Positions 3,189 to 63,461 of a DNA stretch of 64,000 nt are shown one piece after another. Position numbers and translations under genes: made by a program. Source of the stretch: a virus; the IMG/VR virus record IMGVR_UViG_3300046698_000540, positions 1-64,000 of that record. One strand, 5' to 3'. How positions within the stretch are numbered: position 1 is the stretch's first letter; each line of letters starts with the position of its first letter. Below the pieces are notes generated by a model, which was given only the letters and a program-made list of their open reading frames with translations, had not been told where the DNA came from and made no database searches.

Positions 3189-3479
3189 CTATCGGCCGTA
3201 GCCTGCGTGTCCCCCCGGCCGGCCGCTTCCAAAATCAGGACCACCACCCAAGACCTGCCGATCCGCCGCGGTGAACTGACGGTTCAGCGTGGATTCAGGC
3301 GCCGCAAAGGAGCCTGGGTCGATGACCGGATTGATGCGCTCGTGCTTCTCCTCTATCCGGTCGAAAATGTCTTCAATACTCTCGCCCACAAGCTGTTCAC
3401 CTGTGGCCCAAGGATGTTCGATGTCGTGTTGCACTTCCGCTCCTTTCAGCGGGGCGCCCCCGGAGGAGAGGCGCCCCAT
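3189..3479 (-). CDS. small protein with partial C-terminal PGGHAGYGR tag
   Basis: Ends ...GRPGGHAGYGR, like four head-region proteins. Confidence 0.7.
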   Translation of the reverse strand: MGRLSSGGAPLKGAEVQHDIEHPWATGEQLVGESIEDIFDRIEEKHERINPVIDPGSFAAPESTLNRQFTAADRQVLGGGPDFGSGRPGGHAGYGR

Positions 3480-24067: not shown

Positions 24068-25870
24068 CTATTTCGCCGGGCGCGCTTTCTTGGTTTTGGA
24101 AGGTTTCTTGACGGCCTCGGCCTTTGTTTTCTTCGCCTTACTGCCGGGCGCTTCCTGTTTTTTTCCTGACTTTGAGGGCGACTCCCCGAGCCCAAGCCTG
24201 GACGCTGCGCGCTGCTTCCGGACACCGTACTTCTCCGCCAATGGAACCCACAGCTCCTTGAACTCCACACCCCGGTTTTTGGCTATCAGGTAGATCGGAT
24301 TTGGCTTCGAATACCTGTCCTTGGCCTCCTTGATCTCCCGGCTACGGCCAATATGATTGAACAACTGCAACTCCAGCAGGAACAGCGAGAGCGACACAGG
24401 ATCCTTCACCATCTCCTCGGCCCGCTTCTCGACGGCGCCTGCATAGTCCCGACCTTCCTTGACGCTCCCAATCGTGCCAGCGCCGAAGATGGCATCGCAG
24501 TACCTCTTCAGCATGTCGTGATAGGTTCGGGCAATGCACTCGTGAGCCACCAGCACCAGCTCATCCAAAGCAAGCCGCCCGGTCCCTTCCTTTATGGCCT
24601 GCACAAGGAAGGGCACGGCCAACATGTCCTCTTCGTTGTGCTGCTTCGTCTCCAGCTCGCGGTTTTTTTGCTCCAGGTTCGATTTCCTCGTCGTAAGGGG
24701 CTGGGAAGCCGCCGCGGAAGTGCCCTTCTGAGGCTCCCGAAACGAAACGATCTTGCCGATATCGTCACCGGCAACCACAATGCCTGACTTCACACCGGGC
24801 GCCTTTGCATCCTTGCCCTTGACGATCTCGTATTCGTCACAAGACAGAACACCTTTTACTGGATTTCTGTAGCGAACCGTGGACACGGGAACCAGTGCTT
24901 CTCCGTGATGAGAATTCAGCCACAGTTGCTTTGTATTGGCAATTTGCGTACCTACCTTTGCATCAAAGCACTTGGGGTCCGTGCAGGTGTCCTGCTCCTT
25001 GACGTCTGGGAACAAGAGCGTGTTCGCCCCTGTGCGCTTCGGACAAGTAGTGCACGGCCCCGCCGCGGGAATCAACTCAGCGTCCTCCAGGCTGAACGGC
25101 GCCTTCGTCAGTTGCAGATGAAAATTCCGCTGGATGAACTCCTTCAACCTGCGAATCGGTATCAGCCCGTCCCATCCCCCCGCGCACTCCTTCATCGTCT
25201 GTTTCTGCTCATCTTCCGTGAGCCTGGCGATCTCCAGAGCGTGCTCCAAATGGAGCTGACCTTTCCAAAACGCTTTCTTGGCCGGCTCGATCAGTTGATT
25301 AAGCTGCAACCGAAGCTTCACATAGGTGGGCTTTTTTCCCACCTTGCCGGCGAGAACTTCCATATCCTGATAGGTCTTGGACAACGCCAAATACCCTTCG
25401 GCCTCTTCCAGGGGATGCACGTCTTCCCGCTGAATGTTTTCGATCAGAATGATCTCGCGTGCATCGTCGTCGGATAAATCCCTGATGGAGGCGGGAATTT
25501 TCTCGAGACCTGCTATCACGGCCGCCTTCCAGCGCCGGTTGCCTGCTATCACCTGATAGCCTAGGACCTCCCGAACGTGCGACTCATCTGGACCCTCAAA
25601 AATCGGCCGCAAGACCAAATTCTCCAGAATGCCATGCGCCCGAACGGAGGCAACCAGGTCCTCCATCTTCTGCTTGTTGAACTCCCTGCGTTGATTCAAA
25701 CCCGACTCCCGCAGCAATTTGACTTCAACATCGTGCTGCCCGGACGCGGGTAGTTGTGTTACCGTCTGTGTGTCCATTTTCTGTCCTTTCTCGATGTAAT
25801 AAGCCGCATCCAATCTGCATCCTGGCGAGGCGGCGATCTCCGCCGAGGAAACTATTCGTGTTCTTACCAT
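24068..25870 (-). CDS. ParB/RepB/Spo0J-family protein
   Basis: HGILENLVLRP, IAGNRRWKAA, IENIQREDVHPLEEAEGY, HTH, CTTCPKR ... CTDPKCF. Confidence 0.88.
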   Translation of the reverse strand: MVRTRIVSSAEIAASPGCRLDAAYYIEKGQKMDTQTVTQLPASGQHDVEVKLLRESGLNQRREFNKQKMEDLVASVRAHGILENLVLRPIFEGPDESHVREVLGYQVIAGNRRWKAAVIAGLEKIPASIRDLSDDDAREIILIENIQREDVHPLEEAEGYLALSKTYQDMEVLAGKVGKKPTYVKLRLQLNQLIEPAKKAFWKGQLHLEHALEIARLTEDEQKQTMKECAGGWDGLIPIRRLKEFIQRNFHLQLTKAPFSLEDAELIPAAGPCTTCPKRTGANTLLFPDVKEQDTCTDPKCFDAKVGTQIANTKQLWLNSHHGEALVPVSTVRYRNPVKGVLSCDEYEIVKGKDAKAPGVKSGIVVAGDDIGKIVSFREPQKGTSAAASQPLTTRKSNLEQKNRELETKQHNEEDMLAVPFLVQAIKEGTGRLALDELVLVAHECIARTYHDMLKRYCDAIFGAGTIGSVKEGRDYAGAVEKRAEEMVKDPVSLSLFLLELQLFNHIGRSREIKEAKDRYSKPNPIYLIAKNRGVEFKELWVPLAEKYGVRKQRAASRLGLGESPSKSGKKQEAPGSKAKKTKAEAVKKPSKTKKARPAK

Positions 25871-25877
25871 GTTCACC

Positions 25878-26846
25878 TCAAAATGGAACGTCGTCATCGT
25901 TGGGATCGAACAACGGCGTTGCGGCTTGCTTCCTCGGCTTCGCCGGTTTCTTCTCCATCAGGAATTTGTCGTAAGGCGTCAACTGCACCACGTCCTTCAC
26001 CTTCTCCACGCCGTCTTCCCCTTCCACCTCGATCGACGTGATGTATTTGTCCTTCTGTGAGGCCAAAAGTTTCCCCGGTCGCTGGCTGTTCACCTCAGCC
26101 TCATGCTTCGCCGATTCCGACCGCGGCAATGGTTTGTCCGCCCAACCCCTGTCGGGGTCATAGACGAAATCGTGCTTTGACTTCAAATCCAGCTCGAAGT
26201 ACTCGCCGCACTTGCCGGCCAAATAATCTCGGGCCAGTTTGAAGTCTTCGTAAACCTGAGTCTTCATCTCGGCGTTTTCTTCCCTGAGCAGGTATGACGG
26301 ATGGTACGTGGCCAATCCAACCACTTCGCCATACCCGATCGTAAGAAATTTTCCGCGCACTGAACCAATCCGAAGAGTGGCGGGATCCGCGCCAAGCAAA
26401 CCATGCATCGCTGTGGACCCAACCGCCAGGATCAGCCTCTTATTGGGCAGAGCTTCCAATTGCCGGCGCAAAAATCCCGCGCAATTGCTGGATTCCTCCG
26501 CGGTGGGCGTCCTGTTCTTGGCCCAACCCGAGTCCATGATGTCGCAACAGCGGCATTTGCACATGTTCAGGAAATATGTGTTCGTCTCGTTGTATCCGAT
26601 CGACTCAAGACCCCTGTGAAGCAATTTTCCAGCGCGGCCGACAAATGGGATGCCCTGCTTATCCTCATCGTCTCCAGGGCCTTCGCCGAGAATCACCAGG
26701 CGCGCCAGGGGACTTCCCTTGCCGAACACCGAATGTTTCCGGGTGAGGGCGATCTGGCACTTGTGGCAACTGGCCGCCTCCCGCTCGATTTGCGTGAGCA
26801 GCTTCAACGTGCGTTTGCGAACCTCTTCTCCCGTTTCCATGACCAT
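25878..26846 (-). CDS. family 4 uracil-DNA glycosylase-like protein
   Basis: CHKC ... [18 protein letters not shown] ... KCR ... NRTP ... TYHPSYLLR. Confidence 0.9.
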
Positions 26847-51737: not shown

Positions 51738-52100
51738 CTACATCGAACGACCGTAGCCGGCATGGCCGCCAGGAAGCGCCGCGTGACCAAGGATGTTGAA
51801 ATCCTGGCCGGACTTTTTTCCTTTTCCTTTTCCATGGTGGGGGGTCCTCCATCCTCTGAATCCACCACCTTTGGCACCTGAATTGTCTCTTTCCAATTCA
51901 CTGATGTGCCCCAAGTGATGCAAGGATCCCCCGTATTTGCTTTTCTGGTACACATTACCTGTGGGCTTATGCAAAAACTGGCCGCCGGGATGACTTTTAC
52001 CCTGCTGCTCAAACTCATGAGCGGGTAACATCTCGCCGCCTTTTCCGTGACCGCTACCTTGGACGTGGTACTCGTTTAATTTACCTCTTGGAAATCCCAT
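51738..52100 (-). CDS. small basic His/Gly-rich protein with SGQDFNILGHAALPGGHAGYGR tag
   Basis: Shared C-terminal tag; N-terminus duplicated with 53167..53553. Confidence 0.8.
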   Translation of the reverse strand: MGFPRGKLNEYHVQGSGHGKGGEMLPAHEFEQQGKSHPGGQFLHKPTGNVYQKSKYGGSLHHLGHISELERDNSGAKGGGFRGWRTPHHGKGKGKKSGQDFNILGHAALPGGHAGYGRSM

Positions 52101-52129
52101 TTCAAACCTCCAAAACCATTGTGTCGGCC
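52061..52129. repeat. direct repeat, copy 1 (with 53502-53582)
   Basis: 49-bp identity 52081-52129 = 53534-53582, plus flanking similarity. Confidence 0.9.
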
Positions 52130-52131
52130 CG

Positions 52132-52644
52132 CTAGGCCGGTCCTACTACCGTCTTCTCCGAAGCCAGAGCCTCGGCAATTCTCTTCTTCAACCTGGTCAA
52201 CTCCGTCTGCACTTCCCGGTCCATTGCCACCTTGTCCACGGACTTTTTGGCGCCAGGGTGCCTCACTCGCGGCCCAAAAAACTGATCTCCGCTGGCGAAC
52301 TGGAAAGCCAGCACCTTGGCATGAACCGCCTGGATAGCGTGCCTTTTGGTCCCACTCTGCAACAGCGGCCAAATTTTCGCCGCTCGTGGGTCAATGTTCC
52401 GAATCAGGATCTTCAGCTTCGCGTGCGGCTCGTCCGTCTCCACTTCGCCTTTCCACCCGGCGCGCAATTTTCCCGGCGAAGGCTGGTTGGGATCCTTCGA
52501 CACCGGCGTATATTTCCGGTAGAGCTTTTCCAGGATGGCTGAGGACTCGACGGCGACACCCTTCAGCCGGGTGAACTTCAGCATGTTCTCCATCCGTTTC
52601 AGAACGGCGTCCATGCTGACCGAGATTTTGATGCCGTCGATCAT
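52132..52644 (-). CDS. HK97 gp10-like neck protein
   Basis: YTPV ... GKLRAGW ... GTKRHAI ... KVLAF ... VRHPG. Confidence 0.75.
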   Translation of the reverse strand: MIDGIKISVSMDAVLKRMENMLKFTRLKGVAVESSAILEKLYRKYTPVSKDPNQPSPGKLRAGWKGEVETDEPHAKLKILIRNIDPRAAKIWPLLQSGTKRHAIQAVHAKVLAFQFASGDQFFGPRVRHPGAKKSVDKVAMDREVQTELTRLKKRIAEALASEKTVVGPA

Positions 52645-52645
52645 T

Positions 52646-53170
52646 TCAAACCTGCGCGATCGCGGAAAAATCTTTGACTGAGTTCATGGCCGCCATGGCT
52701 GCCGGCGTAATGGCGTCCGTGTTGCCGCTCCACCACCAGTCCCAGGCCATGCTGGCGCGCATCGCAGCGATAAAAGAAAAAGCCCGCTCCTTCACCGCCG
52801 CTTCTTCCAAACCGAAGAACGGGTTGCTGTGAAGAACATCGCCGTCAAGGTTGGCGTATTCCTCCACCGATCCGAGCAGCCAGCACCTGAACGTCTTGCA
52901 TGTGGGCGGTTTTACGCCTTGAATTTCACAGGAGTGCTTGCCTTCCGTTCGGCTCAAAAAAGCGCAGCGCCCGTGAGACCTGGTGTTAAGAACCGGCAGA
53001 CTACCCGGCCTGTCTTGGGCTACCTCCACAGCCTCCACTCGGAGCAAAAAATCCGCTGTGGTGTTCAGGTGATCTGCTACCTCTTCCAAGTTGGGAACAG
53101 GAACCCCGTGCGCTACGTAGCAGCAGGCTCCGCACTGCTGGCAGAGTTCTTCGGTCCAGGGGAACTTCAT
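52646..53170 (-). CDS. YkgJ-family CxxCxxCC cysteine-cluster protein
   Basis: CQQCGACC ... CAFL ... CEI..VKPPTCKTFRC. Confidence 0.85.
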   Translation of the reverse strand: MKFPWTEELCQQCGACCYVAHGVPVPNLEEVADHLNTTADFLLRVEAVEVAQDRPGSLPVLNTRSHGRCAFLSRTEGKHSCEIQGVKPPTCKTFRCWLLGSVEEYANLDGDVLHSNPFFGLEEAAVKERAFSFIAAMRASMAWDWWWSGNTDAITPAAMAAMNSVKDFSAIAQV

Positions 53171-53553
53171 CGGCCGTAACCCGCATGCCCACCGGGAAGC
53201 CCCGCATGACCCAGGATGTTGAAGTCCTGACCGGATTTGCGACCAAATGGATTGTGCCCCGGCTTGCTGTGCGATTTGCCGGGATGTTTTTTGCCAAACT
53301 TGCCATGCTTGCCACCGGCGTTATGGTCGCCTGTTACCGGATCGAAGGTGCCTCCGTTCATAACATCATTGGTATAGTAGTGACCTAACTCACCGTGAAT
53401 GGTGTACCTCTCACCCGAGGAGTTTGGCCCAAAGTACTTTTCTGCTTCCTTATGCGAACCGAATGAGGGAGTCCCCATAGGCCCGTGCTTACTACCGCGT
53501 GGGACGTGGTACAAGTACTCGTTTAATTTACCTTTACCTCTTGGAAATCCCAT
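53167..53553 (-). CDS. small basic His/Gly-rich protein with SGQDFNILGHAGLPGGHAGYGR tag
   Basis: Shared C-terminal tag. Confidence 0.8.
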   Translation of the reverse strand: MGFPRGKGKLNEYLYHVPRGSKHGPMGTPSFGSHKEAEKYFGPNSSGERYTIHGELGHYYTNDVMNGGTFDPVTGDHNAGGKHGKFGKKHPGKSHSKPGHNPFGRKSGQDFNILGHAGLPGGHAGYGR

Positions 53554-53582
53554 TTCAAACCTCCAAAACCATTGTGTCGGCC
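53502..53582. repeat. direct repeat, copy 2
   Basis: See 52061-52129. Confidence 0.9.
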
Positions 53583-54469
53583 AGCAAGTCGATGAAGTTC
53601 TCTACCTTCAGAGAAACTGGATCGCTCATCGCGGCCAGCATGTTCCAGTTGACCGCCGCCAGGATGAAGTACCACGTCCCGGTCGGCAGCAGAGTGTACT
53701 CCATCCACAATTCGTTCTTGGCCATCTGCGCTTCCCCTGTCGAAATCCAGGGGCCTGAAACGCGCTCGAAGGCCAGCGTGTCGGAGTAATAGTCGTAGAT
53801 CGTGCGGATCACCTGCCAGGTTTCAAGAGGCGCCCGTGGATTCTGCGAAGCGTAGAAGCGAAGGTATGCGAGATCGCCTGTGTCCATCCGGGCCCAGTCC
53901 AAAACCAGGCGCCCGAAAGGAACGGCGATGTTCTGGAATCCTCCTGTGTCGGCCGGCGGATTCACCCTGGCGTTCGGATAGTAGAGGTAGGAAACCGACA
54001 GGAGTTTCGGCTTCGGAGGCGGCGGCGCAATCTGCACGGGAACCTTGGCGTGAATAAGCCTACTGTCCCGGACCAGGTTGCCAATCACGATGTCCCCGCT
54101 CACATTGTCTTGTGCGGCGATGCGATCGCGCTGGTAGTCGTACTCGTCCCGCAGCTCGTTAGCGGCGGTAATGAGCATCTGTGAATTGCCCGTCTTGTCT
54201 GCGGAAAAATTCGCGCCTACGGAAACTCGGGTATCTAGAGCATATTCCAGCGCCTTATCCCGGGCGATGCGGACCTTCGCCAGCAGCAGGATGAGCTGTT
54301 CTTCCTCCACGGGAACTGTTGCCCACGTGTAAGACTTGTTGTGCTGGCGAAGGGCCTCGAACAGGGCCTCGTTCAGGAGAGCATTGTCGAAACGCCGCTC
54401 TCCCGTGAGCCAGGAGATGTCTCCAAGCTGGCCCCGCATCGTTTCCCGTAATGCTGAAATAGTGGCCAC
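53555..54469 (-). CDS. head-tail adaptor-like protein with C-terminal Fn3/Ig-like domain
   Basis: LRETMRGQLGD ... FDNALLN; position after capsid genes; GTWYFILAAVN ... S.PVS. Confidence 0.6.
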   Translation of the reverse strand: MATISALRETMRGQLGDISWLTGERRFDNALLNEALFEALRQHNKSYTWATVPVEEEQLILLLAKVRIARDKALEYALDTRVSVGANFSADKTGNSQMLITAANELRDEYDYQRDRIAAQDNVSGDIVIGNLVRDSRLIHAKVPVQIAPPPPKPKLLSVSYLYYPNARVNPPADTGGFQNIAVPFGRLVLDWARMDTGDLAYLRFYASQNPRAPLETWQVIRTIYDYYSDTLAFERVSGPWISTGEAQMAKNELWMEYTLLPTGTWYFILAAVNWNMLAAMSDPVSLKVENFIDLLADTMVLEV

Positions 54470-54481
54470 TGCACCATCCGA

Positions 54482-55078
54482 TTATTCGTAGTACGGGTAA
54501 GCCAGTTCCTCCCGTATCAAGCCGTCGCGAACACTCTTCGGCACCTCGCACACCACGTCCTTCGTGAAGTAGTAGCGGTACGGCCCAATGAACCTGCTGC
54601 CGGTGAACCTGGGCCTCACCTTCACTACCTTTTCCTCCGAAACCAGAGCCTCATCGATGGGGCCAATCTGGATCTTCGTGCGAAGGTCCGCCCTGGAAGC
54701 CGGCCCGACCGGGGGAGGAGCTTGTGTGCTTGGATCGGTGAACACCGGCTTGGGCGCCGGCGGAGGGTCGTTGTAAAGGTTGGACGTTGTCGTAAGGCCC
54801 TGCGGAGGAAGCGGGATGTCGTTTGCCCGCGCGCCTTCGGCGAGCTGATCCATAACCGAACTGTTGAAAGCGGCCGGGGGGACTTCTCCCTTGAACGGCT
54901 TGCCTTCCTCGGTCTTTCCCGTGATTTCCCGCCCTCTTACAGAGTGTGACGTATCGGGTTCAGAATTCGTGTTTCTCGTGCCAGCAGGCAGCGGAACTTC
55001 AATCATTCGTTTCGGCTGCGGAAGTTTTGTCCGCTCCGGAACTGCCTCTGGAATATCCAGCGTTGTGTTCTTTGCCAT
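54482..55078 (-). CDS. hypothetical head-region protein
   Basis: Pro-rich; C-terminal YYFTKD ... VPKSVRDGL. Confidence 0.6.
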   Translation of the reverse strand: MAKNTTLDIPEAVPERTKLPQPKRMIEVPLPAGTRNTNSEPDTSHSVRGREITGKTEEGKPFKGEVPPAAFNSSVMDQLAEGARANDIPLPPQGLTTTSNLYNDPPPAPKPVFTDPSTQAPPPVGPASRADLRTKIQIGPIDEALVSEEKVVKVRPRFTGSRFIGPYRYYFTKDVVCEVPKSVRDGLIREELAYPYYE

Positions 55079-55159
55079 GGTTTTACCTTTCCTCGTTGCA
55101 ATCACCGCCCCTTTCGGGCGATACCTGATTGTACCGAAGCAGTGTTCAAGTTTGCGCTG

Positions 55160-55618
55160 TTACGCGCGGATGCGAATGCGCACGGCCATCTGAGGCGTAG
55201 CCACTCCGCCAGCGGAATGCTCGACGGAGAAGGTCAACACATCGTTCAGTTTGGGTGGCGCCTTCGTAGCGTCCAGTGTGAGAGTGAACGGAACGTACGC
55301 AGCCTGTGACACGGAGGCCGTGGTCAGGGAAGCCAGAACATCGGTCCCTGTGCCATCGCCCTTCCGGTTATACAGCTTGAACGTAACGTAGTTCGATCCA
55401 TTTGCGGCGATCGCAGCCTGCGCAATGACCTCAACCGAATCGATCTGAATGGGATCCGCGGCGGCGCCGCTTCCCTTCAGCATTTTGTCAAGGACCGTTT
55501 CCGCATCCGTGCCCGCGGTTCCCCGCGCGGCGATGGAATACTGCTTTTCTATGAAGTTGCGAACGGCCCCCTTATCGACAGGAACCGTTCCGACATAACC
55601 GAGTGCACCTATAGGCAT
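55160..55618 (-). CDS. capsid decoration-like protein
   Basis: Beta-rich 152 aa directly after the major capsid gene. Confidence 0.55.
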   Translation of the reverse strand: MPIGALGYVGTVPVDKGAVRNFIEKQYSIAARGTAGTDAETVLDKMLKGSGAAADPIQIDSVEVIAQAAIAANGSNYVTFKLYNRKGDGTGTDVLASLTTASVSQAAYVPFTLTLDATKAPPKLNDVLTFSVEHSAGGVATPQMAVRIRIRA

Positions 55619-55663
55619 TTTTCTCCTTTCATTTCGACCAGACTTTGACCAAACGCCCTGGCG

Positions 55664-56605
55664 CTACGCCGACACGATCGGCAGAATGTTGTCGCCGTTG
55701 ATGATCTTCGACCCCATGATCGAATACCACCCAAGCGAATGCTTGCGGCCGAAGTCCTCGACGCCGTTGTCCCGCATCTCGACCGGAAGCCCGACCGCCC
55801 ATGCGTAACTGTTGTCGCCCATCAGGACCGCTTTGTACAGATTGACGGAGCCTGCGCCGGCCGTAACCAGGGTGGCATCGTAAGCCGGATCGGTGGAGAG
55901 AACCGCGCCATTGTTCATGTGCCCGGTGCCCACAAAACGAACATCGTCGAAGCGGCCGAGTTCGCCGCGGAAGAGCTGTTCGGTGGCGCCGTAAGTCGAA
56001 GCCGACACCCATTCCGGATCGCGCTTCAGGCTGGAAGCCTGATGCGGGTGAACGAAACAGGCGAAAAAGTCCCCATTGAACTTGGGAACGTTGAGGGTGT
56101 ACAGACGCTCGACACCGGCGCGCAGGTCGTCGATGCGCAACGGCTGGGAAATGCTGGACAGCGGCCAGGCGCCGCCCGAGCCGATGGAGTTTGCCGATGC
56201 CATCACAGCATTGCGCAACAGCAAGTCGGTGACACGGGCGTAGTCGCGCCCCAACTGGTACGCGGCCTCGGTCAACACATCGTCGTATGCGGACTGGAGC
56301 AACAGTTCCGAAATGGCAATTGCGTTGCCATACTCGGTCACCGTTACAAAGACCTGCGAGGCGGTCATGGCCTGCGTGGTCATGTTGACGCCTTCGGTGA
56401 GGGGTCCGCCGAGCGCCAGGTTCTCGTAGATCGTGAAATAAATGGTCAGGCCGGGCTGCCGGGTCAGTTCGTCCTTGATGACGGCGAACTGCTCGAACCG
56501 CATGGCCGGAAGCGCGCGGTGCTGAATTTCGCGCGAATAGACGTTCAGAATTGCTTGCGGCAAACCGGTTACCACACCGGCTGTCGCCGTACCCGTAAGT
56601 GCCAT
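55664..56605 (-). CDS. major capsid protein (N4-gp56-like)
   Basis: RFEQFA ... PG.TI.F..Y.NL ... LTEG ... EYGNAI ... VHPHQ ... GELGRFDDVRFV ... DFGRKHSLGWY. Confidence 0.9.
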   Translation of the reverse strand: MALTGTATAGVVTGLPQAILNVYSREIQHRALPAMRFEQFAVIKDELTRQPGLTIYFTIYENLALGGPLTEGVNMTTQAMTASQVFVTVTEYGNAIAISELLLQSAYDDVLTEAAYQLGRDYARVTDLLLRNAVMASANSIGSGGAWPLSSISQPLRIDDLRAGVERLYTLNVPKFNGDFFACFVHPHQASSLKRDPEWVSASTYGATEQLFRGELGRFDDVRFVGTGHMNNGAVLSTDPAYDATLVTAGAGSVNLYKAVLMGDNSYAWAVGLPVEMRDNGVEDFGRKHSLGWYSIMGSKIINGDNILPIVSA

Positions 56606-56638
56606 TGACGTAGCTCCTTAAGCAAAGTCCTGCGCCTT

Positions 56639-57382
56639 TCAGCGCGGCTGCTTCATTGGGAGCCCTGCATCCTGGAAAATCTTCGCTTTGATATCTTTCT
56701 TTTTCTGATCCCACTCTTGAGGGGACATGTCCCGCCAAGCTTCTAACCCGCCTGCTGTTACGGCTGCGTCACCTGAGGGTGTGCCCGGAAATACCGGTTT
56801 TGGCAGAGCTTCACGAAGTGGCGCCCCAAGTTCCTTTCTTACGCGCTCAGCTTCTCTGTCGGCGATTTCCTTGTACTTCGCCTTCGCGCGCTCGAAACTT
56901 GCCTGTAGCTCCTCGGGTGTGTTGCCGGCCACCATTTCCGGGATCAGCTCTTGTGTACTCTGGAGGAGGCCCGTGCGCTGCGCCTCAAGCCGATCTCTGC
57001 GGCGCTGCTCCTCATTTTCCTTGCGCTGATTGTCCAGCGCGTCGTCCATTGCCTTACTGAACTGGTCCGTCATGCTGGAAACCTGGCCCGTGAGGGCCGC
57101 GATTTGTTGTTCCAGCGTCTGAGCTTTCCGGCTTCCATCCTGCGCGGTCTCGAGGGCCGCGCGGGCGTCCGCCAGTTCCCGCTCCTTTTTCTGCAGGTCG
57201 GCTTTGTGACGTTCGATCTCGGGATAAAGCTTGGCCTTCTCATCCCGTCTGGCTTCTGCAAGCCTGCGTTCTACCTCTTCCGCCGAGATGCCCCCATTAC
57301 CGGCTGCTGCCTGATGCGGCGGGGCTCCTGCGGGTGATCCTGGTTGTTCTCCGGCTGCTGGTGTGACCTGTGATGTTGCCAT
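56639..57382 (-). CDS. scaffolding protein
   Basis: Coiled coil ARRDEKAKLY ... LIPEMVAGNTPEEL, directly before the major capsid gene. Confidence 0.8.
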   Translation of the reverse strand: MATSQVTPAAGEQPGSPAGAPPHQAAAGNGGISAEEVERRLAEARRDEKAKLYPEIERHKADLQKKERELADARAALETAQDGSRKAQTLEQQIAALTGQVSSMTDQFSKAMDDALDNQRKENEEQRRRDRLEAQRTGLLQSTQELIPEMVAGNTPEELQASFERAKAKYKEIADREAERVRKELGAPLREALPKPVFPGTPSGDAAVTAGGLEAWRDMSPQEWDQKKKDIKAKIFQDAGLPMKQPR

Positions 57383-57422
57383 GGTTTCCTTATCCTTCGT
57401 GAAAATTCTTCACCTAGCTGAA

Positions 57423-57608
57423 CTACGCCAGGCGGGGATCCACTGCCACCCGAACCAGGGCGTCCGGATCGAGCGAGTTGGTGGTGGCCCGCGGAGTGGC
57501 GTCCGGGCGATACCCGGTCTTCCGCTGACTCTTGTTGGCGCCCGCTTCCACCCCGATGCCCCGTTCGTCATTCACGCGGCCCGGCTGAGGGTTAATCGCT
57601 TTCTGCAT
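57423..57608 (-). CDS. small hypothetical protein
   Basis: SD AGGAGG; between portal and scaffold. Confidence 0.6.
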   Translation of the reverse strand: MQKAINPQPGRVNDERGIGVEAGANKSQRKTGYRPDATPRATTNSLDPDALVRVAVDPRLA

Positions 57609-57666
57609 GTTGCCTCCTTACTGTTCATACACCCTTTCGGGTCCAAAACACAACTTCATGCTACCA

Positions 57667-59241
57667 CTACACTCCCGAGGCCTGCGCTCCTGCCTGTTTT
57701 TCGGCTTTGGCTGAGGACTCCTCGGCTGCCGCCGCCTCTGTCTTTGGCGGCTTTTTTCCGGGCGGCTTGGGACCTCCCGCACCGCCTGCTCCACCACTCA
57801 CACCAGCTTCCTGAAGATTCACGGCGTGGTTCAACTGCAACTCGTTTTCTTGCTCTGTTGCCTTTTGAAGCTCTTCGTCCACTTCGTCCAAAACCTTTTG
57901 TGCGTCGCTCACATCCAACTCGGCTGGCGCGATGTCATCGTGGATCAATTCCCGCAAGATCATGGCCCGGGAAAGCAGTTTCATCTGCTGCATGACGGTC
58001 AGCTCGTTCAACCGAAGCTGCTTGTCGCGCGGCAGGGGGTCCGGCCACTTCACGCCGCTGTAGTAAGGCAGGGGACGGCCATTGGCCTTGTAGTCTCCCA
58101 AAATTTCCCGGACGCGGAGAATTTGGTAGTTCACGTACTGGATGCCCTTCGTATACGTGAGCCGCTTCTTCTTCATGTGCTCCAGGATCGGAGCGAACTG
58201 GATGGCCAGGGCAACGCCAGACGTATTCGAGATCGGAACGTCGCCCCCAAAGGCAACCTTCGGCATGGAGCCAAGCTGGAACAACGTGTCCTTCAGATTC
58301 ATCAGGTACTCGCGTGCCGCCGCCAAATCGCCCTGCAGCTCCAGGTTCTCCACCCTGGCGTCCTTCGGCAGACCACTCCACACCTTACGGGCGCCTTTTT
58401 GCAGCGTGGAAGCCTTCGCGCCATAAATCACGGTCACCGGCGCCGCGTGGTAGTTGATGATGTCGCCCAAGTCGGTGGTCTTCTCGTTGAACTCCCGATT
58501 CGAGTCCACCACCTGGCCGATGTCCGACATGCCGAAAAATTCCGTGCCCACCATCAGGTTCGGAATATGCGTGAACGGAATTTCCCCCAAAAGGTTCGGC
58601 TTGGAATTGCTGATGGGCTGGCCGTCCCGCAGTTCCCAAACCTCATCCTTCGTCCAATACTGCCCCGCGACGTAGGTCCGAACCCTGACGCGGCCGAAAG
58701 CATTGCTCACCACTTCCGATTCGGGCCACTGCACCAGCAAACCGGAAAATCCGCGGTCGGAATTTCTGAAAAAAATCGGGAAAACAAATTCGCTTGGAAA
58801 GACGGTCAACTTTACGCGATCGCCAAAGACCGCATCGTTGTCGATCCCGACGTTTACCCAACAGTCGCCTGTCACCCCTCCGACTTGGCCCATCTGGAAA
58901 CCAAGCTGCCCAATGTGGTTTTTTTCCCACTCCTCGTTCAACAGGTCTTCGGCTGCCTGATAGGCGCTGCCGCGAAAATTCGCGTGGATCGTGAACTGAT
59001 TGCCGAACAGATATTGCGAGTGCTTGTCCACGAAAAGCTGCACGAAGTTCGCGGTGGTCACAGGCTCGCCGGCCTCGGGAACATAGTTCCAGTGGTTGCC
59101 CTTGTAGAAGTTCCAGAGCCTGCCGTATTGCAGAATGCGGGCGGCGTTCTGATGCCAGATGTCTATTTCGTGCCCCGACGTGATCGGGTAGTCCCGGTTC
59201 ACGCGATTCAGCGTGAACCTGGTCATGTCGCCCATGCTCAT
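57667..59241 (-). CDS. portal protein (SPP1-like)
   Basis: WNFYKGNHW ... N.LGEIPFTHIPN ... GMSDI ... NTSGVAL ... WPDPLPRD. Confidence 0.9.
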   Translation of the reverse strand: MSMGDMTRFTLNRVNRDYPITSGHEIDIWHQNAARILQYGRLWNFYKGNHWNYVPEAGEPVTTANFVQLFVDKHSQYLFGNQFTIHANFRGSAYQAAEDLLNEEWEKNHIGQLGFQMGQVGGVTGDCWVNVGIDNDAVFGDRVKLTVFPSEFVFPIFFRNSDRGFSGLLVQWPESEVVSNAFGRVRVRTYVAGQYWTKDEVWELRDGQPISNSKPNLLGEIPFTHIPNLMVGTEFFGMSDIGQVVDSNREFNEKTTDLGDIINYHAAPVTVIYGAKASTLQKGARKVWSGLPKDARVENLELQGDLAAAREYLMNLKDTLFQLGSMPKVAFGGDVPISNTSGVALAIQFAPILEHMKKKRLTYTKGIQYVNYQILRVREILGDYKANGRPLPYYSGVKWPDPLPRDKQLRLNELTVMQQMKLLSRAMILRELIHDDIAPAELDVSDAQKVLDEVDEELQKATEQENELQLNHAVNLQEAGVSGGAGGAGGPKPPGKKPPKTEAAAAEESSAKAEKQAGAQASGV

Positions 59242-59250
59242 ATTAGAGCC

Positions 59251-59670
59251 TCACTGTCCGTATCCTGCGTGCCCGCCTGGAAGTCCTGCGTGACCTAAGA
59301 CGTTGAAATCCTGACCAGACTTGTGCGTTCTGCTCCCTCGCTCGCCTATGACAACTGGCAGTTTTGCCATTCCCATCTCGCGTCCTATAGCCAGACGGTG
59401 GTGCCCGTCTTCTATATGGTAGTGTCCTTCACCCTCGTGGCGCAGAATGATAGGTGCCATACCGTGCTTGCGTACGTGCTCCTTGAACTTTTCCAAATAG
59501 GGGCGCTCGAATTTCTGAATGGAAGCGACCCTACCTGCATCCTGCAACTTCATCAGGTGTGCCTTGGTGGCCATAAAGCCCGAGGCACCTTGAGACTCGT
59601 GGATTGCTCGAGCAGCTCTGTGCGCTTCGCGCCGCTCGTGATCATCCCGTGCTTCTTCATCAACCGTCAT
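59251..59670 (-). CDS. ParB/Sulfiredoxin-like domain protein with SGQDFNVLGHAGLPGGHAGYG tag
   Basis: HGMAPIIL ... IEDGHHRL ... G...LPV; shared tag; ATGA coupling to the glycosyltransferase stop. Confidence 0.8.
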   Translation of the reverse strand: MTVDEEARDDHERREAHRAARAIHESQGASGFMATKAHLMKLQDAGRVASIQKFERPYLEKFKEHVRKHGMAPIILRHEGEGHYHIEDGHHRLAIGREMGMAKLPVVIGERGSRTHKSGQDFNVLGHAGLPGGHAGYGQ

Positions 59671-60905
59671 TTCCGCACTGTCTCCGTGAGGATAGCTTGC
59701 TCGATCTGACTCCAGACCGCTTCCCATCGGTAATGCTGGCGGTAGAACGTCTTAGCCCGAAGAACGTGGTTCGACTCCATCGTGTGCACGATGATCTTCG
59801 CCATGTCCCGGAAAAAAGCCGCCTTGTCTGGCATCTCCACCTGCTGCTGGTAGCTGCCGAACGTGAAATGCAGAGCGCTCCCTGGGCCGGCGATTTCCTG
59901 GAACATGGGCAGATTTTGGTTCAGCACCAAAAGCTGTCCACACAGAGCCGCCTCTGCGGGCGCGTATCCAAAAGATTCTGACTTCGATGGGCAAATAAAA
60001 AGGTTGCCTATCTGCATCAAATCGTGCACCACGGCCTGTGAAACTCCAACCTCAAACTCGGGATCGAACCGGCTGGTGAAAATCACTTCCCGGTCAGTGA
60101 GCCCCTGGTCGAACGCGTGGTTGATCAGAAACTTCACGTCGGCCCGGCGCTCATCCGTGTTGCACCAAGCGTTGCAGAAAATCAGGCGCACGCTTTTTCC
60201 GTGGCGTTTCAGTTGGCCGAACAACTCGATCACTTCCTTGGCGCCTTTTGGCTCGTAGCGATCGGTGGGGATCGGGTACACCTGAATGATGTCCGCCGCC
60301 AGCACGTCGTACTCGGTCACCAAACGCTCCGCCAGATCGGTGCGGAACATGTACTCGCGGGGATCTTTTGAATGCGGAATTATCAGCACGTTCTCCTGCC
60401 AGGTCCGAAAATGTTCCGCGCATCGAATGCGGTCCTGGTGGTTCGGATAAACGAGCTTCCCGTTGGGTGGCACCCGCCAGTAATCGCGCATGCCTCCACC
60501 CGGAACGGAATGCACCCAGTGAAAATGCGGAAAAGGCCAGAACGTAGCCGCTTCCTGCATTCCCAGGTTCAGCGGCAAATTCCAGCCCGTGAATAGAATG
60601 TCGTGCGAGAACAGGGCGTTCAGATCGCCGAGGCTGCCGGCCATCCACCGGCAAGCTGCTCTGCCCACGTCGATATGCTCCATGGGCAGTTCCGAAAGGC
60701 TTTTGTAATCCTTCTTGGCCCAAACAGGCAGCCCGGCGCGGATCTCAACCCAATCCGGCGCCTCGGGCCATTTGAAATCTTCAAGCCCAATCAATACGGG
60801 CGTGTGACCAGCGTGGTGAATCATCCGCAACTGCCCGAGCACCACAGCGGTTAAGCTGTAGTGATCCAACATTGCGGAGAAGGCCGTCAAAAGTCCAATT
60901 TTCAT
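59667..60905 (-). CDS. GT4 (GT-B) glycosyltransferase
   Basis: MKIGLL ... WVHS ... K ... LFICPSKSESFGYAPAEAALCG (EX7E) ... YRWEAV. Confidence 0.85.
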   Translation of the reverse strand: MKIGLLTAFSAMLDHYSLTAVVLGQLRMIHHAGHTPVLIGLEDFKWPEAPDWVEIRAGLPVWAKKDYKSLSELPMEHIDVGRAACRWMAGSLGDLNALFSHDILFTGWNLPLNLGMQEAATFWPFPHFHWVHSVPGGGMRDYWRVPPNGKLVYPNHQDRIRCAEHFRTWQENVLIIPHSKDPREYMFRTDLAERLVTEYDVLAADIIQVYPIPTDRYEPKGAKEVIELFGQLKRHGKSVRLIFCNAWCNTDERRADVKFLINHAFDQGLTDREVIFTSRFDPEFEVGVSQAVVHDLMQIGNLFICPSKSESFGYAPAEAALCGQLLVLNQNLPMFQEIAGPGSALHFTFGSYQQQVEMPDKAAFFRDMAKIIVHTMESNHVLRAKTFYRQHYRWEAVWSQIEQAILTETVRK

Positions 60906-60974
60906 GCCTCTCCAATCGAATGCGGGCGGCGCTTTTTTGGGGCGCCGCCTACACGGAGGTTAGCAGGTTTTCGG

Positions 60975-61913
60975 TCAGATGACCGGGCCATGGTAGCTTC
61001 GCCTGCGAACCGACGACGCTACTTCTTGCTGAGGTTCCTCGACCAGCGGCCCATCTTCAACGTAGGGGCCCACCAGAGCCATCAGGATCTGGGTATTCAC
61101 ATTGCCCAACCCCAACAGCTCGAACAGCTTGCCGTAGTTGATCTGCCACGGCTCATTCTCCGGAACAGGACCGCCAACAACAACGGCTTCCGGATAGCGC
61201 TCGTAAACTTCTTGCGCGAGAAGACCCACGTATACTTTCTTTTCGAGGTCGGCCTTGAAATAGAACGCGTACACGTTCAAGCCGAACACCTGTGCGATCT
61301 TGGACAGGATCTCCTTCAACCGGGCATCCGAGGTCGTGGTAGTCGTAGTGGTTGAAGTCGTAGTGGTCGAAGTCGTAGTGGTCGTGCTGGTCGAAGTGGT
61401 GCTGGAACTGGTCGTGCTCGTCAACCCGGTGAACGTGTTGACGAAAACCGCCAGCCAACTGCCGCCGCGGACATAGTTGTCAACCAGCTTTTTCGCCAGC
61501 CATTGGGAAATGTCCGGCGAAGGAATCATCGCGTATGCTCTTTCCACGATGTCCCTTTGGCGCACGATGCACGTGTAGGTGACACCGCCGATGGTCCCCG
61601 TGATCTGCACCCGGTCGTAGCCTGCCACCAGGGAGTAGCACGTCGCCTTGTTGCCAAATGTCACCGCAACCTGCGTCGTCGAACGCGGGTGTGTGATGTT
61701 GACCGTTCGGCTTGCCACGAGATTGTTGATGAGCTGGTCCATGCGGGCCCAGTCATCCAAGAACGCTTGCGCCACGCTGGTACCCGTCAGTTCCGTGGGG
61801 TTGAAAGGCTTGGTCCATTCCATCAGATGCGAATTGCCGTCAACCGTACCCGACAAGAGCCAGGAGCCTTCGGCATCGAAAGGAACAGCCGCTGTAATAA
61901 TCACTGTAGACAT
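60975..61913 (-). CDS. protein with Ser/Thr tract and C-terminal intramolecular chaperone (peptidase S74)
   Basis: TS-DARLKE ... GLLAQEV ... YPEAV ... INYGKL. Confidence 0.85.
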   Translation of the reverse strand: MSTVIITAAVPFDAEGSWLLSGTVDGNSHLMEWTKPFNPTELTGTSVAQAFLDDWARMDQLINNLVASRTVNITHPRSTTQVAVTFGNKATCYSLVAGYDRVQITGTIGGVTYTCIVRQRDIVERAYAMIPSPDISQWLAKKLVDNYVRGGSWLAVFVNTFTGLTSTTSSSTTSTSTTTTTSTTTTSTTTTTTTSDARLKEILSKIAQVFGLNVYAFYFKADLEKKVYVGLLAQEVYERYPEAVVVGGPVPENEPWQINYGKLFELLGLGNVNTQILMALVGPYVEDGPLVEEPQQEVASSVRRRSYHGPVI

Positions 61914-61950
61914 GGTTTTCTGCTTACCTCCTCTTTTCGTCAATGAAGCG

Positions 61951-62154
61951 CTATCGTGTTTCGGTGTCCACGCGGGTACGCTCCTGGCTCGCGCGGTTCT
62001 GATCGCCATGCCCTCCCGGAGGGGGACCTTTCCGCGGACTTCCTACTCGGGAGCCTGGAGGAACGCGGGGATTTCCGGGCGGCGTAGAAAAACCGCGGCC
62101 GGAGGTATTGTCTTGCGAGAATGCGCCCTCGCCGGGGCGCGCTTTGACTGCCAT
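61951..62154 (-). CDS. small Pro/Gly-rich protein
   Basis: SD GGAGG; fills the gap between neighbours. Confidence 0.5.
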   Translation of the reverse strand: MAVKARPGEGAFSQDNTSGRGFSTPPGNPRVPPGSRVGSPRKGPPPGGHGDQNRASQERTRVDTETR

Positions 62155-62157
62155 AGC

Positions 62158-62355
62158 TTATTCCTCCTTGGCGCCTTCGTGCTCTTCCTTGGCGGCCTGC
62201 TTGTGCTTGTGGTGCTGGGCCAGGTGGTGCTTGTGCTTCGCCGAGTGGTGCTTCTCTTCGTCCCACTCTCCCTGTTTGGCCGCTTCGTCCGCCAGGCCTT
62301 TGTGATGCTCCGCGAGCTTGCCGTGCATATCTGCTTCGTCACAATGAGAACACAT
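62158..62355 (-). CDS. small His/Lys/Glu-rich protein
   Basis: SD GAGGAGG; 65 aa. Confidence 0.6.
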   Translation of the reverse strand: MCSHCDEADMHGKLAEHHKGLADEAAKQGEWDEEKHHSAKHKHHLAQHHKHKQAAKEEHEGAKEE

Positions 62356-62364
62356 GGTTCCTCC

Positions 62365-62826
62365 TCAGAAACTTCCGGTATACCCAGACAGTGGGCCGGT
62401 CAGGCTCTGCTTCGCCAGCAGGGCGAGGATCTGTGCCACTCGCTGCGTGAAGAGCGGCGTCGTCATCAGCGACCAGTCCAGGAAGCTCACCGTGCTCATG
62501 GTGATCGTGAAGGACGTGCTGTACACCGTGGCCGTGATCGACACCTGACCGTAGCCCGGATTCGTAACCGGCGATGCACCAAATGTCACCGTTGGTAAAT
62601 CCGGCAGATTGGAAACCGTAACCACCTGATTCGCCAACTGCGCGATCGCCGCAAGGTAGGCCGCGATTTCGGCCAAGACCATGGCGGCCAGTTTGGACGC
62701 CGGCATGGAGATTTGATCGAGGGCCACGTTGTCTTTGGCGTACAAATAATTGGTCACCCCGCCGCCCGTTGCTTTCACGTAGAGCCGGTTCAGATCCGGG
62801 TCCACGCTGAGACTCGTTACTGTCAT
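62365..62826 (-). CDS. hypothetical protein (possible paralog of the 60975..61913 N-terminal region)
   Basis: VTFG ... GYGQVSITATV versus VTFG ... GYDRVQITGTI. Confidence 0.65.
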   Translation of the reverse strand: MTVTSLSVDPDLNRLYVKATGGGVTNYLYAKDNVALDQISMPASKLAAMVLAEIAAYLAAIAQLANQVVTVSNLPDLPTVTFGASPVTNPGYGQVSITATVYSTSFTITMSTVSFLDWSLMTTPLFTQRVAQILALLAKQSLTGPLSGYTGSF

Positions 62827-62835
62827 AAAACGCTC

Positions 62836-63165
62836 CTATTGACTGATTTTTCCGCGCGCCTCGGCGCGGCGTTGCTGAAACTCGCTGCCCCGGTACTCTT
62901 CCCGGCCGTCGTGCATCTCGTGGGTCGCCGCCGGCGCATGGCCCGGTTCGCCAAGCACGAAGTGATCCTGGAAGGAAATAGCCGTGCCCACCTTGGCCAG
63001 ACCTTGAACAGCACCTCTCACAGACCACTTGTGCGGGGTTTTATCCAGATGTCCAGGGGCTTTGTGCTTGTGCGTTTCGACCAGACCACAATCCGTGCAC
63101 ACCCTTGGTTCGGGGCTGCCCGTCATGAAATTTGCGAACTTTTGACCTTTGCTTCGAATGCTCAC
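62836..63165 (-). CDS. small basic protein with CxxC-H motif
   Basis: CTDCG ... H ... H; ATGA coupling. Confidence 0.6.
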   Translation of the reverse strand: MSIRSKGQKFANFMTGSPEPRVCTDCGLVETHKHKAPGHLDKTPHKWSVRGAVQGLAKVGTAISFQDHFVLGEPGHAPAATHEMHDGREEYRGSEFQQRRAEARGKISQ

Positions 63166-63461
63166 ATGGACCTCCCGTAGCCGGCGTGCCCGCCCGGCAA
63201 CGCGGCATGGCCCAGAATGTTGAAGTCTTGACCGGACCGCTCTAAACTGGATTTGGCGCCTGTTCTGGCAAACTTCAACTGGGAATGCGTTTGCCTGTGC
63301 GGGCCGAACCGCGGTTCTGCGCCGGCCTTTTTCGCCTTAGCACTCCAGTTCTTTCCGTGGTGTGCCTTCAGCATTTTCTTGTGCTCTGGGGTGGCTCGAC
63401 CTTGTGCATGAGCCTCTTCCGCTTCCGTTAAAAAATCCGCTGTTCTGGACATGGCCCTCAC
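63162..63461 (-). CDS. small basic protein with SGQDFNILGHAALPGGHAGYGR tag
   Basis: Shared C-terminal tag; coupled to the terminase stop. Confidence 0.8.
   Translation of the reverse strand: MRAMSRTADFLTEAEEAHAQGRATPEHKKMLKAHHGKNWSAKAKKAGAEPRFGPHRQTHSQLKFARTGAKSSLERSGQDFNILGHAALPGGHAGYGRSM

What the first reader, a model, noticed from the sequence alone, without database searches (positions are those of the whole stretch)
51738..63461. Shared 22-aa C-terminal tag on unrelated small proteins: candidate capsid cargo-loading signal
Seen: SGQDFN[IV]LGHA[AG]LPGGHAGYG[RQ] ends four proteins (tag DNA at 63162-63236, 59251-59319, 53167-53235, 51738-51812). PGGHAGYGR also ends a fifth far away (3189..3479). 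Copies differ mainly at synonymous sites (GHAGYG = GGG CAC GCC GGC TAC GGG / GGG CAC GCA GGA TAC GGA / GGG CAT GCG GGT TAC GGC / GGC CAT GCC GGC TAC GGT), so selection acts on the peptide. Protein bodies are mostly basic and His/Gly-rich, and one is ParB/Srx-like. Established: T4 internal proteins use an N-terminal capsid-targeting sequence and encapsulins use terminal cargo-loading peptides. Inference: a modular system that packs interchangeable effector proteins into the head.
Basis: partly seen in the sequence, partly recalled or inferred. Interest (0 to 1): 0.8.

Follow-up and report, generated by a model that had tools for sequence, protein, structure and literature searches.

The report
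Shared C-terminal tag, phage head-module genes
An uncultivated soil or peat phage and its close relatives end many unrelated small proteins, encoded among the head and neck genes, with the same about 22-residue peptide; it is most likely an address label that brings them to one common partner, perhaps the assembling capsid, but that partner is not identified.

Summary
Five minus-strand genes end in ..GGHAGYG[RQ]. Four of them carry the full motif SGQDFN[IV]LGHA[AG]LPGGHAGYG[RQ].

Between the copies, synonymous sites are saturated (pS 0.78) while pN is 0.05-0.13. Selection therefore acts on the peptide and not on the DNA or RNA.

A profile of the tag finds 43 distinct protein clusters among 1.84 billion representatives:
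- All are small (56-196 aa).
- Their bodies are unrelated: basic His/Gly-rich, DUF6496, ParB_N-like and HAD-like.
- In 38 of 44 tagged sequences the core lies within 4 residues of the C-terminus.

In seven metagenome contigs and one IMG/VR relative, the tagged genes fill variable slots between conserved head and neck genes, namely after TerL, before the portal, and around the adaptor and Neck1. They are tightly packed with their neighbours.

I found no prohead protease. The capsid protein is an ordinary N4-gp56-type HK97 fold. The tag is absent from 78 more distant relatives, from cultured phages and from 185k prokaryote genomes.

The capsid-loading reading fits the context and parallels the T4 CTS/internal proteins and encapsulin cargo peptides. 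No receptor or packaging evidence exists, so I give it about 0.35.

This scan has noted comparable shared tags on other phage DNA before, mostly N-terminal ones. Later checks of those kept the observations but rated the capsid reading low.

The parts
63162..63461 (-). Tagged gene in the slot directly after the large terminase (99 aa from GTG; a source calls a 70-aa form). The tag is at 63171-63236, followed by Ser-Met and the stop.
   Evidence: The GTG start overlaps the TerL stop, and its ATGTGA end overlaps the next gene's GTG. The homologue L021:370-711 shares only the last ~33 aa plus the tag.
59251..59727 (-). ParB_N/Srx-like tagged gene directly upstream of the portal gene. The likely true start is the ATG at 59670 (139 aa), in an ATGA overlap with the GT4 stop. 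The tag is at 59254-59319.
   Evidence: Pfam PF02195, E=4e-6. P0013 matches the 139-aa form.
53167..53553 (-). Tagged gene (128 aa, basic, Gly/His-rich) between the 304-aa adaptor-like gene and a CxxCxxCC gene. The tag is at 53170-53235.
   Evidence: It has a strong SD (GGAGGTTTGAAATG), and its stop overlaps the next start as ATGA. The ESM Atlas model has mean pLDDT 0.39.
51738..52100 (-). Tagged gene (120 aa, basic, Gly/His-rich) after the Neck1-like gene. The tag is at 51747-51812, followed by Ser-Met and the stop.
   Evidence: An identical protein is on L019, and a different tagged body occupies the same slot on L016 and L018.
3189..3479 (-). Fifth gene (96 aa, acidic) carrying only the core half of the tag (..PDFGSGRPGGHAGYGR*, core at 3192-3218). 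It lies just downstream of the QueE-like radical-SAM gene.
62836..63165 (-). 109-aa gene with an internal, decayed tag-like stretch (SFQDHFVLGEPGH..) followed by a second conserved C-terminal module, EYRGSEFQQRRAEARGKISQ. It looks like a fusion of two genes that are separate in relative L021 (708-920, fully tagged, and 922-1275).
   Evidence: Alignment A3. In L020:8990-9385, L006:1700-1933 and P0042 an intact or nearly intact tag lies upstream of a linker and the same module.
53533..53588 (-). 56-nt direct repeat (second copy at 52080-52135, 96% identical). It carries the end of the upstream gene, the SD and the codons for MGFPRGK. It is the footprint of duplication or exchange of a tagged cassette.
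   Evidence: family D3; upstream sequences.
55664..59241 (-). Head core around which the tagged slots lie: portal 57667-59241 (SPP1 Gp6-like), a 61-aa ORF, scaffold-like gene 56639-57382, and major capsid protein 55664-56605 (N4-gp56 family, HK97 fold).
   Evidence: AF2 model pLDDT 79; best PDB matches are Pan3, P-SCSP1u and N4 capsids.
52132..52644 (-). Neck1/tail-completion-like gene, flanked on both sides by tagged-gene slots.
   Evidence: phrog_5, E=1.5e-4. The same arrangement is seen in L018 and L016.

Best explanation
The peptide is a portable C-terminal address label. Its consensus is [KRH][KR]-S-G-Q-D-x-x-[IVL]-L-G-x4-[PA]-G-G-H-A-G-[YF]-G-x-COOH. The minimal element is the GGHAG[YF]G end. 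The upstream SGQDxx(I/V)LG half is a second, separable element.

A narrow clade of uncultivated myoviruses attaches it to a fast-changing set of small proteins. These phages have an N4-gp56-type capsid, a portal-scaffold-capsid gene order and no detectable prohead protease. The tagged proteins are mostly basic and apparently disordered, plus a few small enzymes.

The genes are cassettes inserted between conserved head and neck genes and are translated together with them. Most likely the label docks all these proteins to one site of the assembling head: the scaffold core, the inner capsid surface or the portal. They would then be enclosed in the particle, uncleaved, and leave with the DNA at infection.

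- **Shown:** the tag, its peptide-level selection, its terminal position, its modularity and its gene location.
- **Inferred:** docking, enclosure and ejection.
For: 1. **Selection on the peptide.** pS 0.78 against pN 0.05-0.13. No Rfam element lies in the window.
2. **Modularity.** There are 43 distinct 50%-identity clusters with the tag among 1.84e9 representatives, all 56-196 aa. Bodies are unrelated and include ParB_N, DUF6496 and HAD-like proteins.
3. **Terminal position.** 29 of 44 have exactly one residue after the core, and 38 of 44 have four or fewer.
4. **Location.** Four of the five window copies lie within 12 kb of head and neck genes. All seven metagenome contigs found through the tag alone, and the IMG/VR relative, place tagged genes next to TerL, portal, capsid-adjacent, adaptor or Neck1 genes. 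Which slots are occupied differs between relatives.
5. **Co-expression.** Tagged genes overlap or abut structural genes (ATGA, GTGA) and have no promoter or terminator of their own.
6. **No prohead protease.** No Pfam prohead-protease family matches. This fits an uncleaved tag.
7. **Precedent.** T4 internal proteins are diverse small basic proteins that share only the CTS (PMC3012670, PMC9026906). Encapsulin cargo carries short C-terminal peptides (PMC8346489). P1 DarA/Hdf bind the inner capsid (PMC12810830).
Against: - There is no direct evidence of binding or of presence in virions, and no receptor is identified.
- The fifth gene lies ~48 kb away, next to DNA-modification genes.
- The 78 relatives with 45-54% identical capsid proteins have no such tag and no other shared tail. 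Loading by a terminal tag is therefore not a property of this capsid family.
- The capsid model is an ordinary phage HK97 fold without encapsulin-specific features.
- The tag has no resemblance to any solved peptide.
- Three clusters carry the tag internally, 32-48 residues from the end.
- Analogous 'shared tag means capsid address' readings elsewhere in this scan were rated low on later checks.
Confidence: 0.35

Rival explanations
1. The tag is a short linear docking motif for a common partner that is not part of the head. That partner could be a host hub (chaperone, protease, polymerase or clamp, ribosome) or a phage-made assembly or condensate. The tagged proteins would then act in the infected cell and would not be packaged.
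For: - The modularity, terminal position and selection fit any hub-binding motif equally well.
- Some proteins carry two tags, or an extra internal SGQDxx(L/I)(L/F)G copy (P0016, P0019, P0020, P0036), as multivalent SLiMs do.
- The fifth gene lies outside the head module.
- The tag is His/Tyr/Gly-rich. From my own knowledge, this resembles sticker motifs of coacervating proteins.
Against: - Gene location and tight coupling to head and neck genes hold in every context seen.
- No cellular genome among 185k species carries the motif, so it does not mimic a host motif.
- No phage clamp or PDZ domain was found.
- The spacing Q-D-x-x-hydrophobic-L does not fit the bacterial clamp-binding pentapeptide (own knowledge).
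Confidence: 0.25
2. The tag anchors variable proteins to the outside of the particle, on the capsid surface, neck or collar. They would be exchangeable decoration or adhesion modules.
For: The late, head-neck location is the same as for the best explanation. Slots around the adaptor and Neck1 would suit neck-attached proteins. Basic, sticky bodies could bind anionic polymers.
Against: Small enzymes (ParB_N-like, HAD-like) and disordered basic peptides are unusual as decorations. A candidate decoration gene (152 aa, 55160-55618) already follows the capsid gene. There is no Ig-like or lectin-like body among the 43 clusters.
Confidence: 0.1
3. The tag is a recognition or processing site. Possibilities are cleavage after the Gly-Gly, a modification of the Tyr or His (for instance by the conserved neighbouring GT4 glycosyltransferase), or a two-histidine metal site.
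For: - The invariant core GGHAG[YF]G is more tightly conserved than simple docking usually requires.
- GT4 is conserved next to the pre-portal slot in all four contexts that cover it.
- A radical-SAM gene sits beside the fifth gene.
- Bodies are His-rich.
Against: - The radical-SAM gene pairs with a QueD-type PTPS gene, so it is most simply a 7-deazaguanine pathway enzyme.
- The residue four before the Gly-Gly varies (L, K, V, R, I, T, C, H), unlike Gly-Gly protease sites.
- No protease was found.
- GT4 more plausibly serves the adjacent Ser/Thr-tract fibre gene.
- CxxCxxCC is absent from relative L018.
Confidence: 0.1
4. The tag acts in cis as a nascent peptide, a ribosome-arrest or termination-pausing sequence that tunes translation of the coupled downstream structural gene.
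For: A ~22-aa peptide conserved at the amino-acid level just before the stop codon, with irrelevant upstream bodies and tight coupling to the next gene, is the layout of the arrest peptides SecM, MifM and TnaC (own knowledge).
Against: - The same downstream genes (adaptor, Neck1, portal) lack a tagged gene upstream in some relatives, so they do not depend on it.
- Bodies include real domains.
- Tandem and internal tags exist.
- Synonymous sites are saturated, so no conserved mRNA switch accompanies the tag.
Confidence: 0.04
5. There is no common function. The tag is only the slow-evolving remnant of one ancestral small gene that duplicated and recombined, and its bodies diverged beyond recognition.
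For: There are duplication footprints: a 56-nt repeat and a shared MGFPRGK N-terminus. Bodies are mosaic between relatives.
Against: The tag is joined to three independent Pfam-type domains. Synonymous saturation alongside a near-invariant peptide requires continuing selection on each copy.
Confidence: 0.05

Closest known systems
Capsid targeting sequence (CTS) of phage T4 internal proteins IPI, IPII, IPIII and Alt
   Same: A short terminal peptide is the only thing shared by a diverse, fast-changing set of small, mostly basic proteins. Their genes vary between related phages (PMC3012670, PMC9026906). Cassette-like exchange is also seen here.
   Different: The CTS is N-terminal, about 10 residues long, targets the scaffolding core, and is cut off by the prohead protease gp21. 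Here the tag is C-terminal and about 22 residues long in two parts. No prohead protease is detectable, and there is no sequence similarity. Packaging is proven for T4 and is unproven here.
C-terminal cargo-loading (targeting) peptides of Family 1 encapsulins
   Same: A short, uncleaved C-terminal peptide on unrelated cargo proteins, read by an HK97-fold shell (PMC8346489). Both peptides are Gly-rich with a small hydrophobic pair.
   Different: The shell here belongs to a complete tailed phage with terminase, portal, scaffold and tail. The capsid protein is PF25209/PF13252 (N4-gp56 type), and phage capsids are its best structural matches; an encapsulin appears only at rank 33. The motif differs from the TVGSL type. 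The N-terminal-helix binding pocket of encapsulins could not be assessed, because residues 1-31 of the model have low confidence.
Phage P1 Dar proteins (DarA/Hdf) and other head-internal or ejected proteins (T7 gp6.7/gp7.3, P22 gp7/16/20)
   Same: Non-essential or accessory proteins are built into the head and released at infection. P1 DarA-Hdf sits on the inner capsid surface (PMC12810830). From my own knowledge, T7's small basic head proteins are encoded next to the portal gene, as here.
   Different: Those proteins carry no common portable tag shared by unrelated bodies. Their incorporation depends on individual protein-protein contacts.
MuF-domain polymorphic toxins of temperate phages
   Same: A constant head-associated module is joined to variable effector modules.
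   Different: The constant part there is an N-terminal MuF domain of more than 100 residues. No MuF domain is present in this record, and the constant part here is a 22-residue C-terminal peptide.

Membership tests
T4-type capsid targeting sequence (CTS) | N-terminal position of the targeting peptide | tested here: not met
   The tag is C-terminal in all five window genes and within 4 residues of the end in 38 of 44 tagged sequences.
T4-type capsid targeting sequence (CTS) | Removal by a prohead protease (gp21-type, S77) after targeting | tested here: not met
   No PF03420, PF04586 or PF00574 match in the 100-kb record. The record is about 80% complete, so absence is not absolute.
T4-type capsid targeting sequence (CTS) | Shared by otherwise unrelated, variable small proteins | tested here: met
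T4-type capsid targeting sequence (CTS) | Confers packaging into the head on a foreign protein | not testable with these tools
   Needs an expression and packaging experiment.
Encapsulin Family 1 cargo-loading peptide | Short C-terminal peptide on cargo proteins | tested here: met
Encapsulin Family 1 cargo-loading peptide | The shell is an encapsulin (Linocin_M18-type HK97 protein without portal, terminase or tail) | tested here: not met
   The capsid protein matches PF25209/PF13252. Terminase, portal, scaffold and tail genes are present. The best structural matches are phage capsids.
Encapsulin Family 1 cargo-loading peptide | Peptide binds a pocket formed by the shell protein's N-terminal helix and P-domain | tested here: inconclusive
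   The AF2 model has low confidence for residues 1-31. No complex prediction was possible with the tools.
ParB/Srx-like (ParB_N) domain, for the body of gene 59251-59670 | Match to Pfam PF02195 above the gathering score | tested here: met
   27.2 bits against a cut-off of 26.3, E=4e-6. This is marginal. The single-sequence AF2 model is too poor to confirm the fold.
MuF polymorphic toxin | N-terminal Phage_Mu_F domain | tested here: not met
   No PF04233 match in the record. No Pfam hit on the tagged proteins apart from ParB_N.

The most novel reading that the evidence does not exclude
A true tailed phage uses an encapsulin-style, uncleaved, two-part C-terminal cargo-loading peptide to fill its head with an interchangeable arsenal of small effector proteins. 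These genes are swapped as cassettes between head and neck genes and the proteins are injected with the DNA. It would be the first C-terminal, protease-independent capsid-address system in a phage, and a possible functional bridge between phage capsids and encapsulins.
Probability: 0.25. Interest if true: 0.8.

Novelty: new variant of a known kind. Interest (0 to 1): 0.55.

Why it matters
If the tag does load proteins into the head, it would be a second, mechanistically different solution to the problem T4 solves with its N-terminal, protease-trimmed CTS. This one would be C-terminal, uncleaved, and present in a phage without a prohead protease. That would match how encapsulins load cargo.

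It would mark about 40 unknown small protein families as candidate injected effectors, such as anti-defence or DNA-binding proteins. It would also give a 22-residue handle for loading foreign proteins into capsids.

Even if the partner turns out to be something else, the tag defines a previously undescribed, strongly selected docking motif that links many orphan phage genes to one process.

Tried and rejected
The long contigs behind the more distant tagged proteins and the 64-73%-identical capsid relatives could not be read.

**Searches that found no tag**
- Tag patterns in genome contigs: none.
- IMG/VR: only the phage's own lineage. The other PGGHAGYG matches were chance.
- Cultured phages: no tag.
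- The nearest cultured capsid relatives, BCD7 and BRock, show no shared tails among their small head-module ORFs.
- 78 IMG/VR loci with 45-54% identical capsids have no tag and no other shared tail. They share only TerL, portal, scaffold and capsid with the window, so a presence/absence hunt for the receptor failed.

**Structure and look-alike searches**
- PDB profile search with the tag: nothing.
- ESM Atlas look-alikes: nothing usable.
- AF2 of the ParB-like tagged protein from a single sequence: pLDDT 41, uninformative.

**Family searches in the record**
- Rfam: nothing in the window.
- No prohead protease, PDZ, beta-clamp or MuF family.

**Ideas rejected**
- Scaffold mimicry. The scaffold C-terminus (..IFQDAGLPMKQPR) shares QD..AGLP with the tag, but the matching L/P positions are variable in the tag.
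- RiPP-type maturation by the nearby radical-SAM enzyme. That gene pairs with QueD.
- An adenain-like or double-glycine cleavage site. The upstream positions are not conserved.
- An RNA or DNA element. Synonymous sites are saturated.


Full report
**Setting**

The window is the first 64 kb of a 100,369-bp linear IMG/VR virus record, about 80% complete by CheckV. GC is 56.5% and nearly all genes are on the minus strand.

| Window region | Content |
|---|---|
| 64 to 33 kb | Structural block: large terminase, SPP1-type portal, scaffold-like gene, N4-gp56-type capsid protein, adaptor-like, Neck1-like, sheath-sized and large tail genes |
| 32 to 7 kb | Replication genes: DnaB-like helicase, a 609-aa ParB-like protein, family A polymerase, helicase, UvsX-like recombinase |
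| 6.3 to 3.5 kb | A QueD-type PTPS gene and a QueE-like radical-SAM gene |

**The observation**

Four carry the full 22-residue tag SGQDFN[IV]LGHA[AG]LPGGHAGYG[RQ]. In two of them Ser-Met follows the tag. The fifth, 3189-3479, carries only the second half (..RPGGHAGYGR). The other 36 kb of the record holds no further copy.

By Nei-Gojobori counting, the four window copies differ at 78% of synonymous sites, which is saturation, but at only 5% of non-synonymous sites. Across 13 unique copies, relatives included, pN/pS is 0.17. The repeat is therefore kept by selection on the peptide, not by recent gene conversion and not as an RNA or DNA element. Rfam finds nothing in the window.

The bodies do not match each other, apart from a shared N-terminus of genes 51738 and 53167. 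That shared N-terminus lies in a 56-nt direct repeat that also carries the ribosome-binding site.

**How wide the tag family is**

A word-based search and then an exhaustive profile search with 16 aligned tags against 1.84 billion cluster representatives gave 44 hits at E<=1e-3.
- 43 are real, and 19 of them have E<1e-8.
- All are small, 56-196 aa.
- Their bodies are unrelated.

The invariant core is GGHAG[YF]G. Upstream lies a second element, [KRH][KR]SGQDxx[IVLM]LG.
- In 29 of 44 tagged sequences exactly one residue follows the core. In 38 of 44, four or fewer follow.
- Two proteins carry tandem tags.
- Two carry an extra internal copy of the first element.
- HAD-like proteins and the window's fifth gene carry the core alone. 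The core is therefore the minimal unit.

Bodies include a ParB_N-like domain, DUF6496 and a HAD-like fold family. The tag has thus been joined to independent domains.

**Where the genes lie**

Scanning for the tag's degenerate DNA pattern returned seven metagenome contigs and one IMG/VR relative. Every one places the tagged genes among head and neck genes. The slots are:
- directly after the large terminase;
- directly before the portal, where L020 has two tagged genes, one of them HAD-like;
- between the 207-aa gene and the adaptor-like gene (L015);
- between the adaptor-like gene and Neck1;
- after Neck1.

Which slots are filled, and with which body, differs between phages whose capsid proteins are 94% identical (L006/L008). 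Bodies are also mosaics. The window's post-terminase protein shares only its last ~33 residues plus the tag with its L021 counterpart.

Tagged genes have strong SD sequences, or overlap their neighbours as ATGA or GTGA. They have no promoter or terminator of their own. They are therefore made together with the head proteins.

**What is absent**
- No prohead protease family.
- No PDZ, beta-clamp or MuF domain.
- No tag in 185k prokaryote species genomes or in cultured phages.
- The nearest cultured relatives by capsid protein are Bacillus BCD7 at 45% and Streptomyces BRock at 39%. Both are myoviruses with the same terminase-portal-scaffold-capsid order. They show no shared tails.
- 78 IMG/VR loci with 45-54% identical capsids have neither this tag nor any other shared C-terminal tail.

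The tag is thus an innovation of one narrow clade.

**The capsid protein**

The capsid protein folds as an ordinary HK97 phage protein (pLDDT 79). It is closest to the Pan3, P-SCSP1u and N4 capsids. An encapsulin appears only at rank 33.

**Interpretation**

The data show a portable, strongly selected, almost always terminal peptide on a polymorphic set of small proteins. These proteins are co-expressed with the head. That pattern points to docking on one common partner.

The gene location, the small basic bodies and the cassette-like turnover parallel T4. There, internal proteins are diverse and share only the capsid targeting sequence (PMC3012670, PMC9026906). A C-terminal uncleaved tag in a protease-less phage recalls encapsulin cargo peptides (PMC8346489). 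P1 shows that accessory proteins can sit on the inner capsid wall (PMC12810830).

I therefore rank head loading first, at about 0.35. No receptor, binding or virion evidence exists, and several rivals fit the same facts:
- a hub-binding motif acting in the cell (0.25);
- an external anchor (0.10);
- a processing or modification site (0.10);
- a relic without common function (0.05);
- a cis-acting arrest peptide (0.04). This last one is weakened because the downstream structural genes lack a tagged gene in some relatives.

Earlier notes of this scan report comparable shared tags in other phages. Later checks of those kept the observations but gave the capsid reading low odds, and this tempers my estimate.

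**A linked oddity**

One conserved gene after the terminase slot has a tag-like stretch in its middle. A linker follows, and then a second conserved C-terminal module, GE[YF]RGSEFxxRRAxAxxIS[QET]. The window's version, 62836-63165, looks like a fusion of two genes that are separate in L021, and its tag-like part has decayed. This shows that the tag tolerates an internal position. It also links the tag to a second unexplained terminal module.

**Limits**

Single-chain folding could not test a tag-capsid complex. The single-sequence model of the ParB-like protein was uninformative.

Noticed in passing
window 62836-63165; L021:922-1275; L020:8990-9385; L006:1700-1933: A second conserved C-terminal module, GE[YF]RGSEFxxRRAxAxxIS[QET], ends a gene with variable N-terminal parts. 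In three relatives an intact or nearly intact copy of the tag sits upstream of it, joined by a Ser/Thr/Gly/Pro linker. The window's gene appears to be a fusion of two genes that are separate in L021.
   Followed up: partly
window 62158-62355: A 65-aa, very His/Lys/Glu-rich ORF beginning MCSHCDE... is conserved in L021 and partly in L020. It may bind metal, and the tagged bodies are also His-rich.
   Followed up: no
window 59667-60905 and 60975-62009: A GT4 glycosyltransferase is conserved next to a fibre-like gene. That gene has a long Thr/Ser tract followed by a Peptidase_S74 intramolecular chaperone. This suggests O-glycosylation of a virion fibre.
   Followed up: no
window 52646-53170: A CxxCxxCC (PF03692) putative Zn/Fe-binding protein is inserted in the neck module. 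Its start overlaps the stop of a tagged gene. It is absent from the same slot in relative L018, so it is a moron-like insert.
   Followed up: partly
window 3569-4360 and 5865-6326: QueE-like radical-SAM and QueD-type PTPS genes suggest that this phage makes a 7-deazaguanine DNA modification. In relative L017 a QueD-like gene follows the post-terminase tagged gene.
   Followed up: no
window 2231-2545 versus L006:2645-2965: The 104-aa gene at the far end of the window has its homologue inside the head module of relative L006. This indicates a module rearrangement between close relatives.
   Followed up: no
window 24068-25897: A large (609 aa) ParB-like protein sits in the replication block. It is separate from the small tagged ParB_N-like gene.
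   Followed up: no
L017:183-437, L006:1467-1703, P0016, P0028, P0033: The post-terminase slot is often filled by a DUF6496-type body (motif MHE[FW]KxGxLxS...AIAI[GA]LS) joined to the tag.
   Followed up: partly
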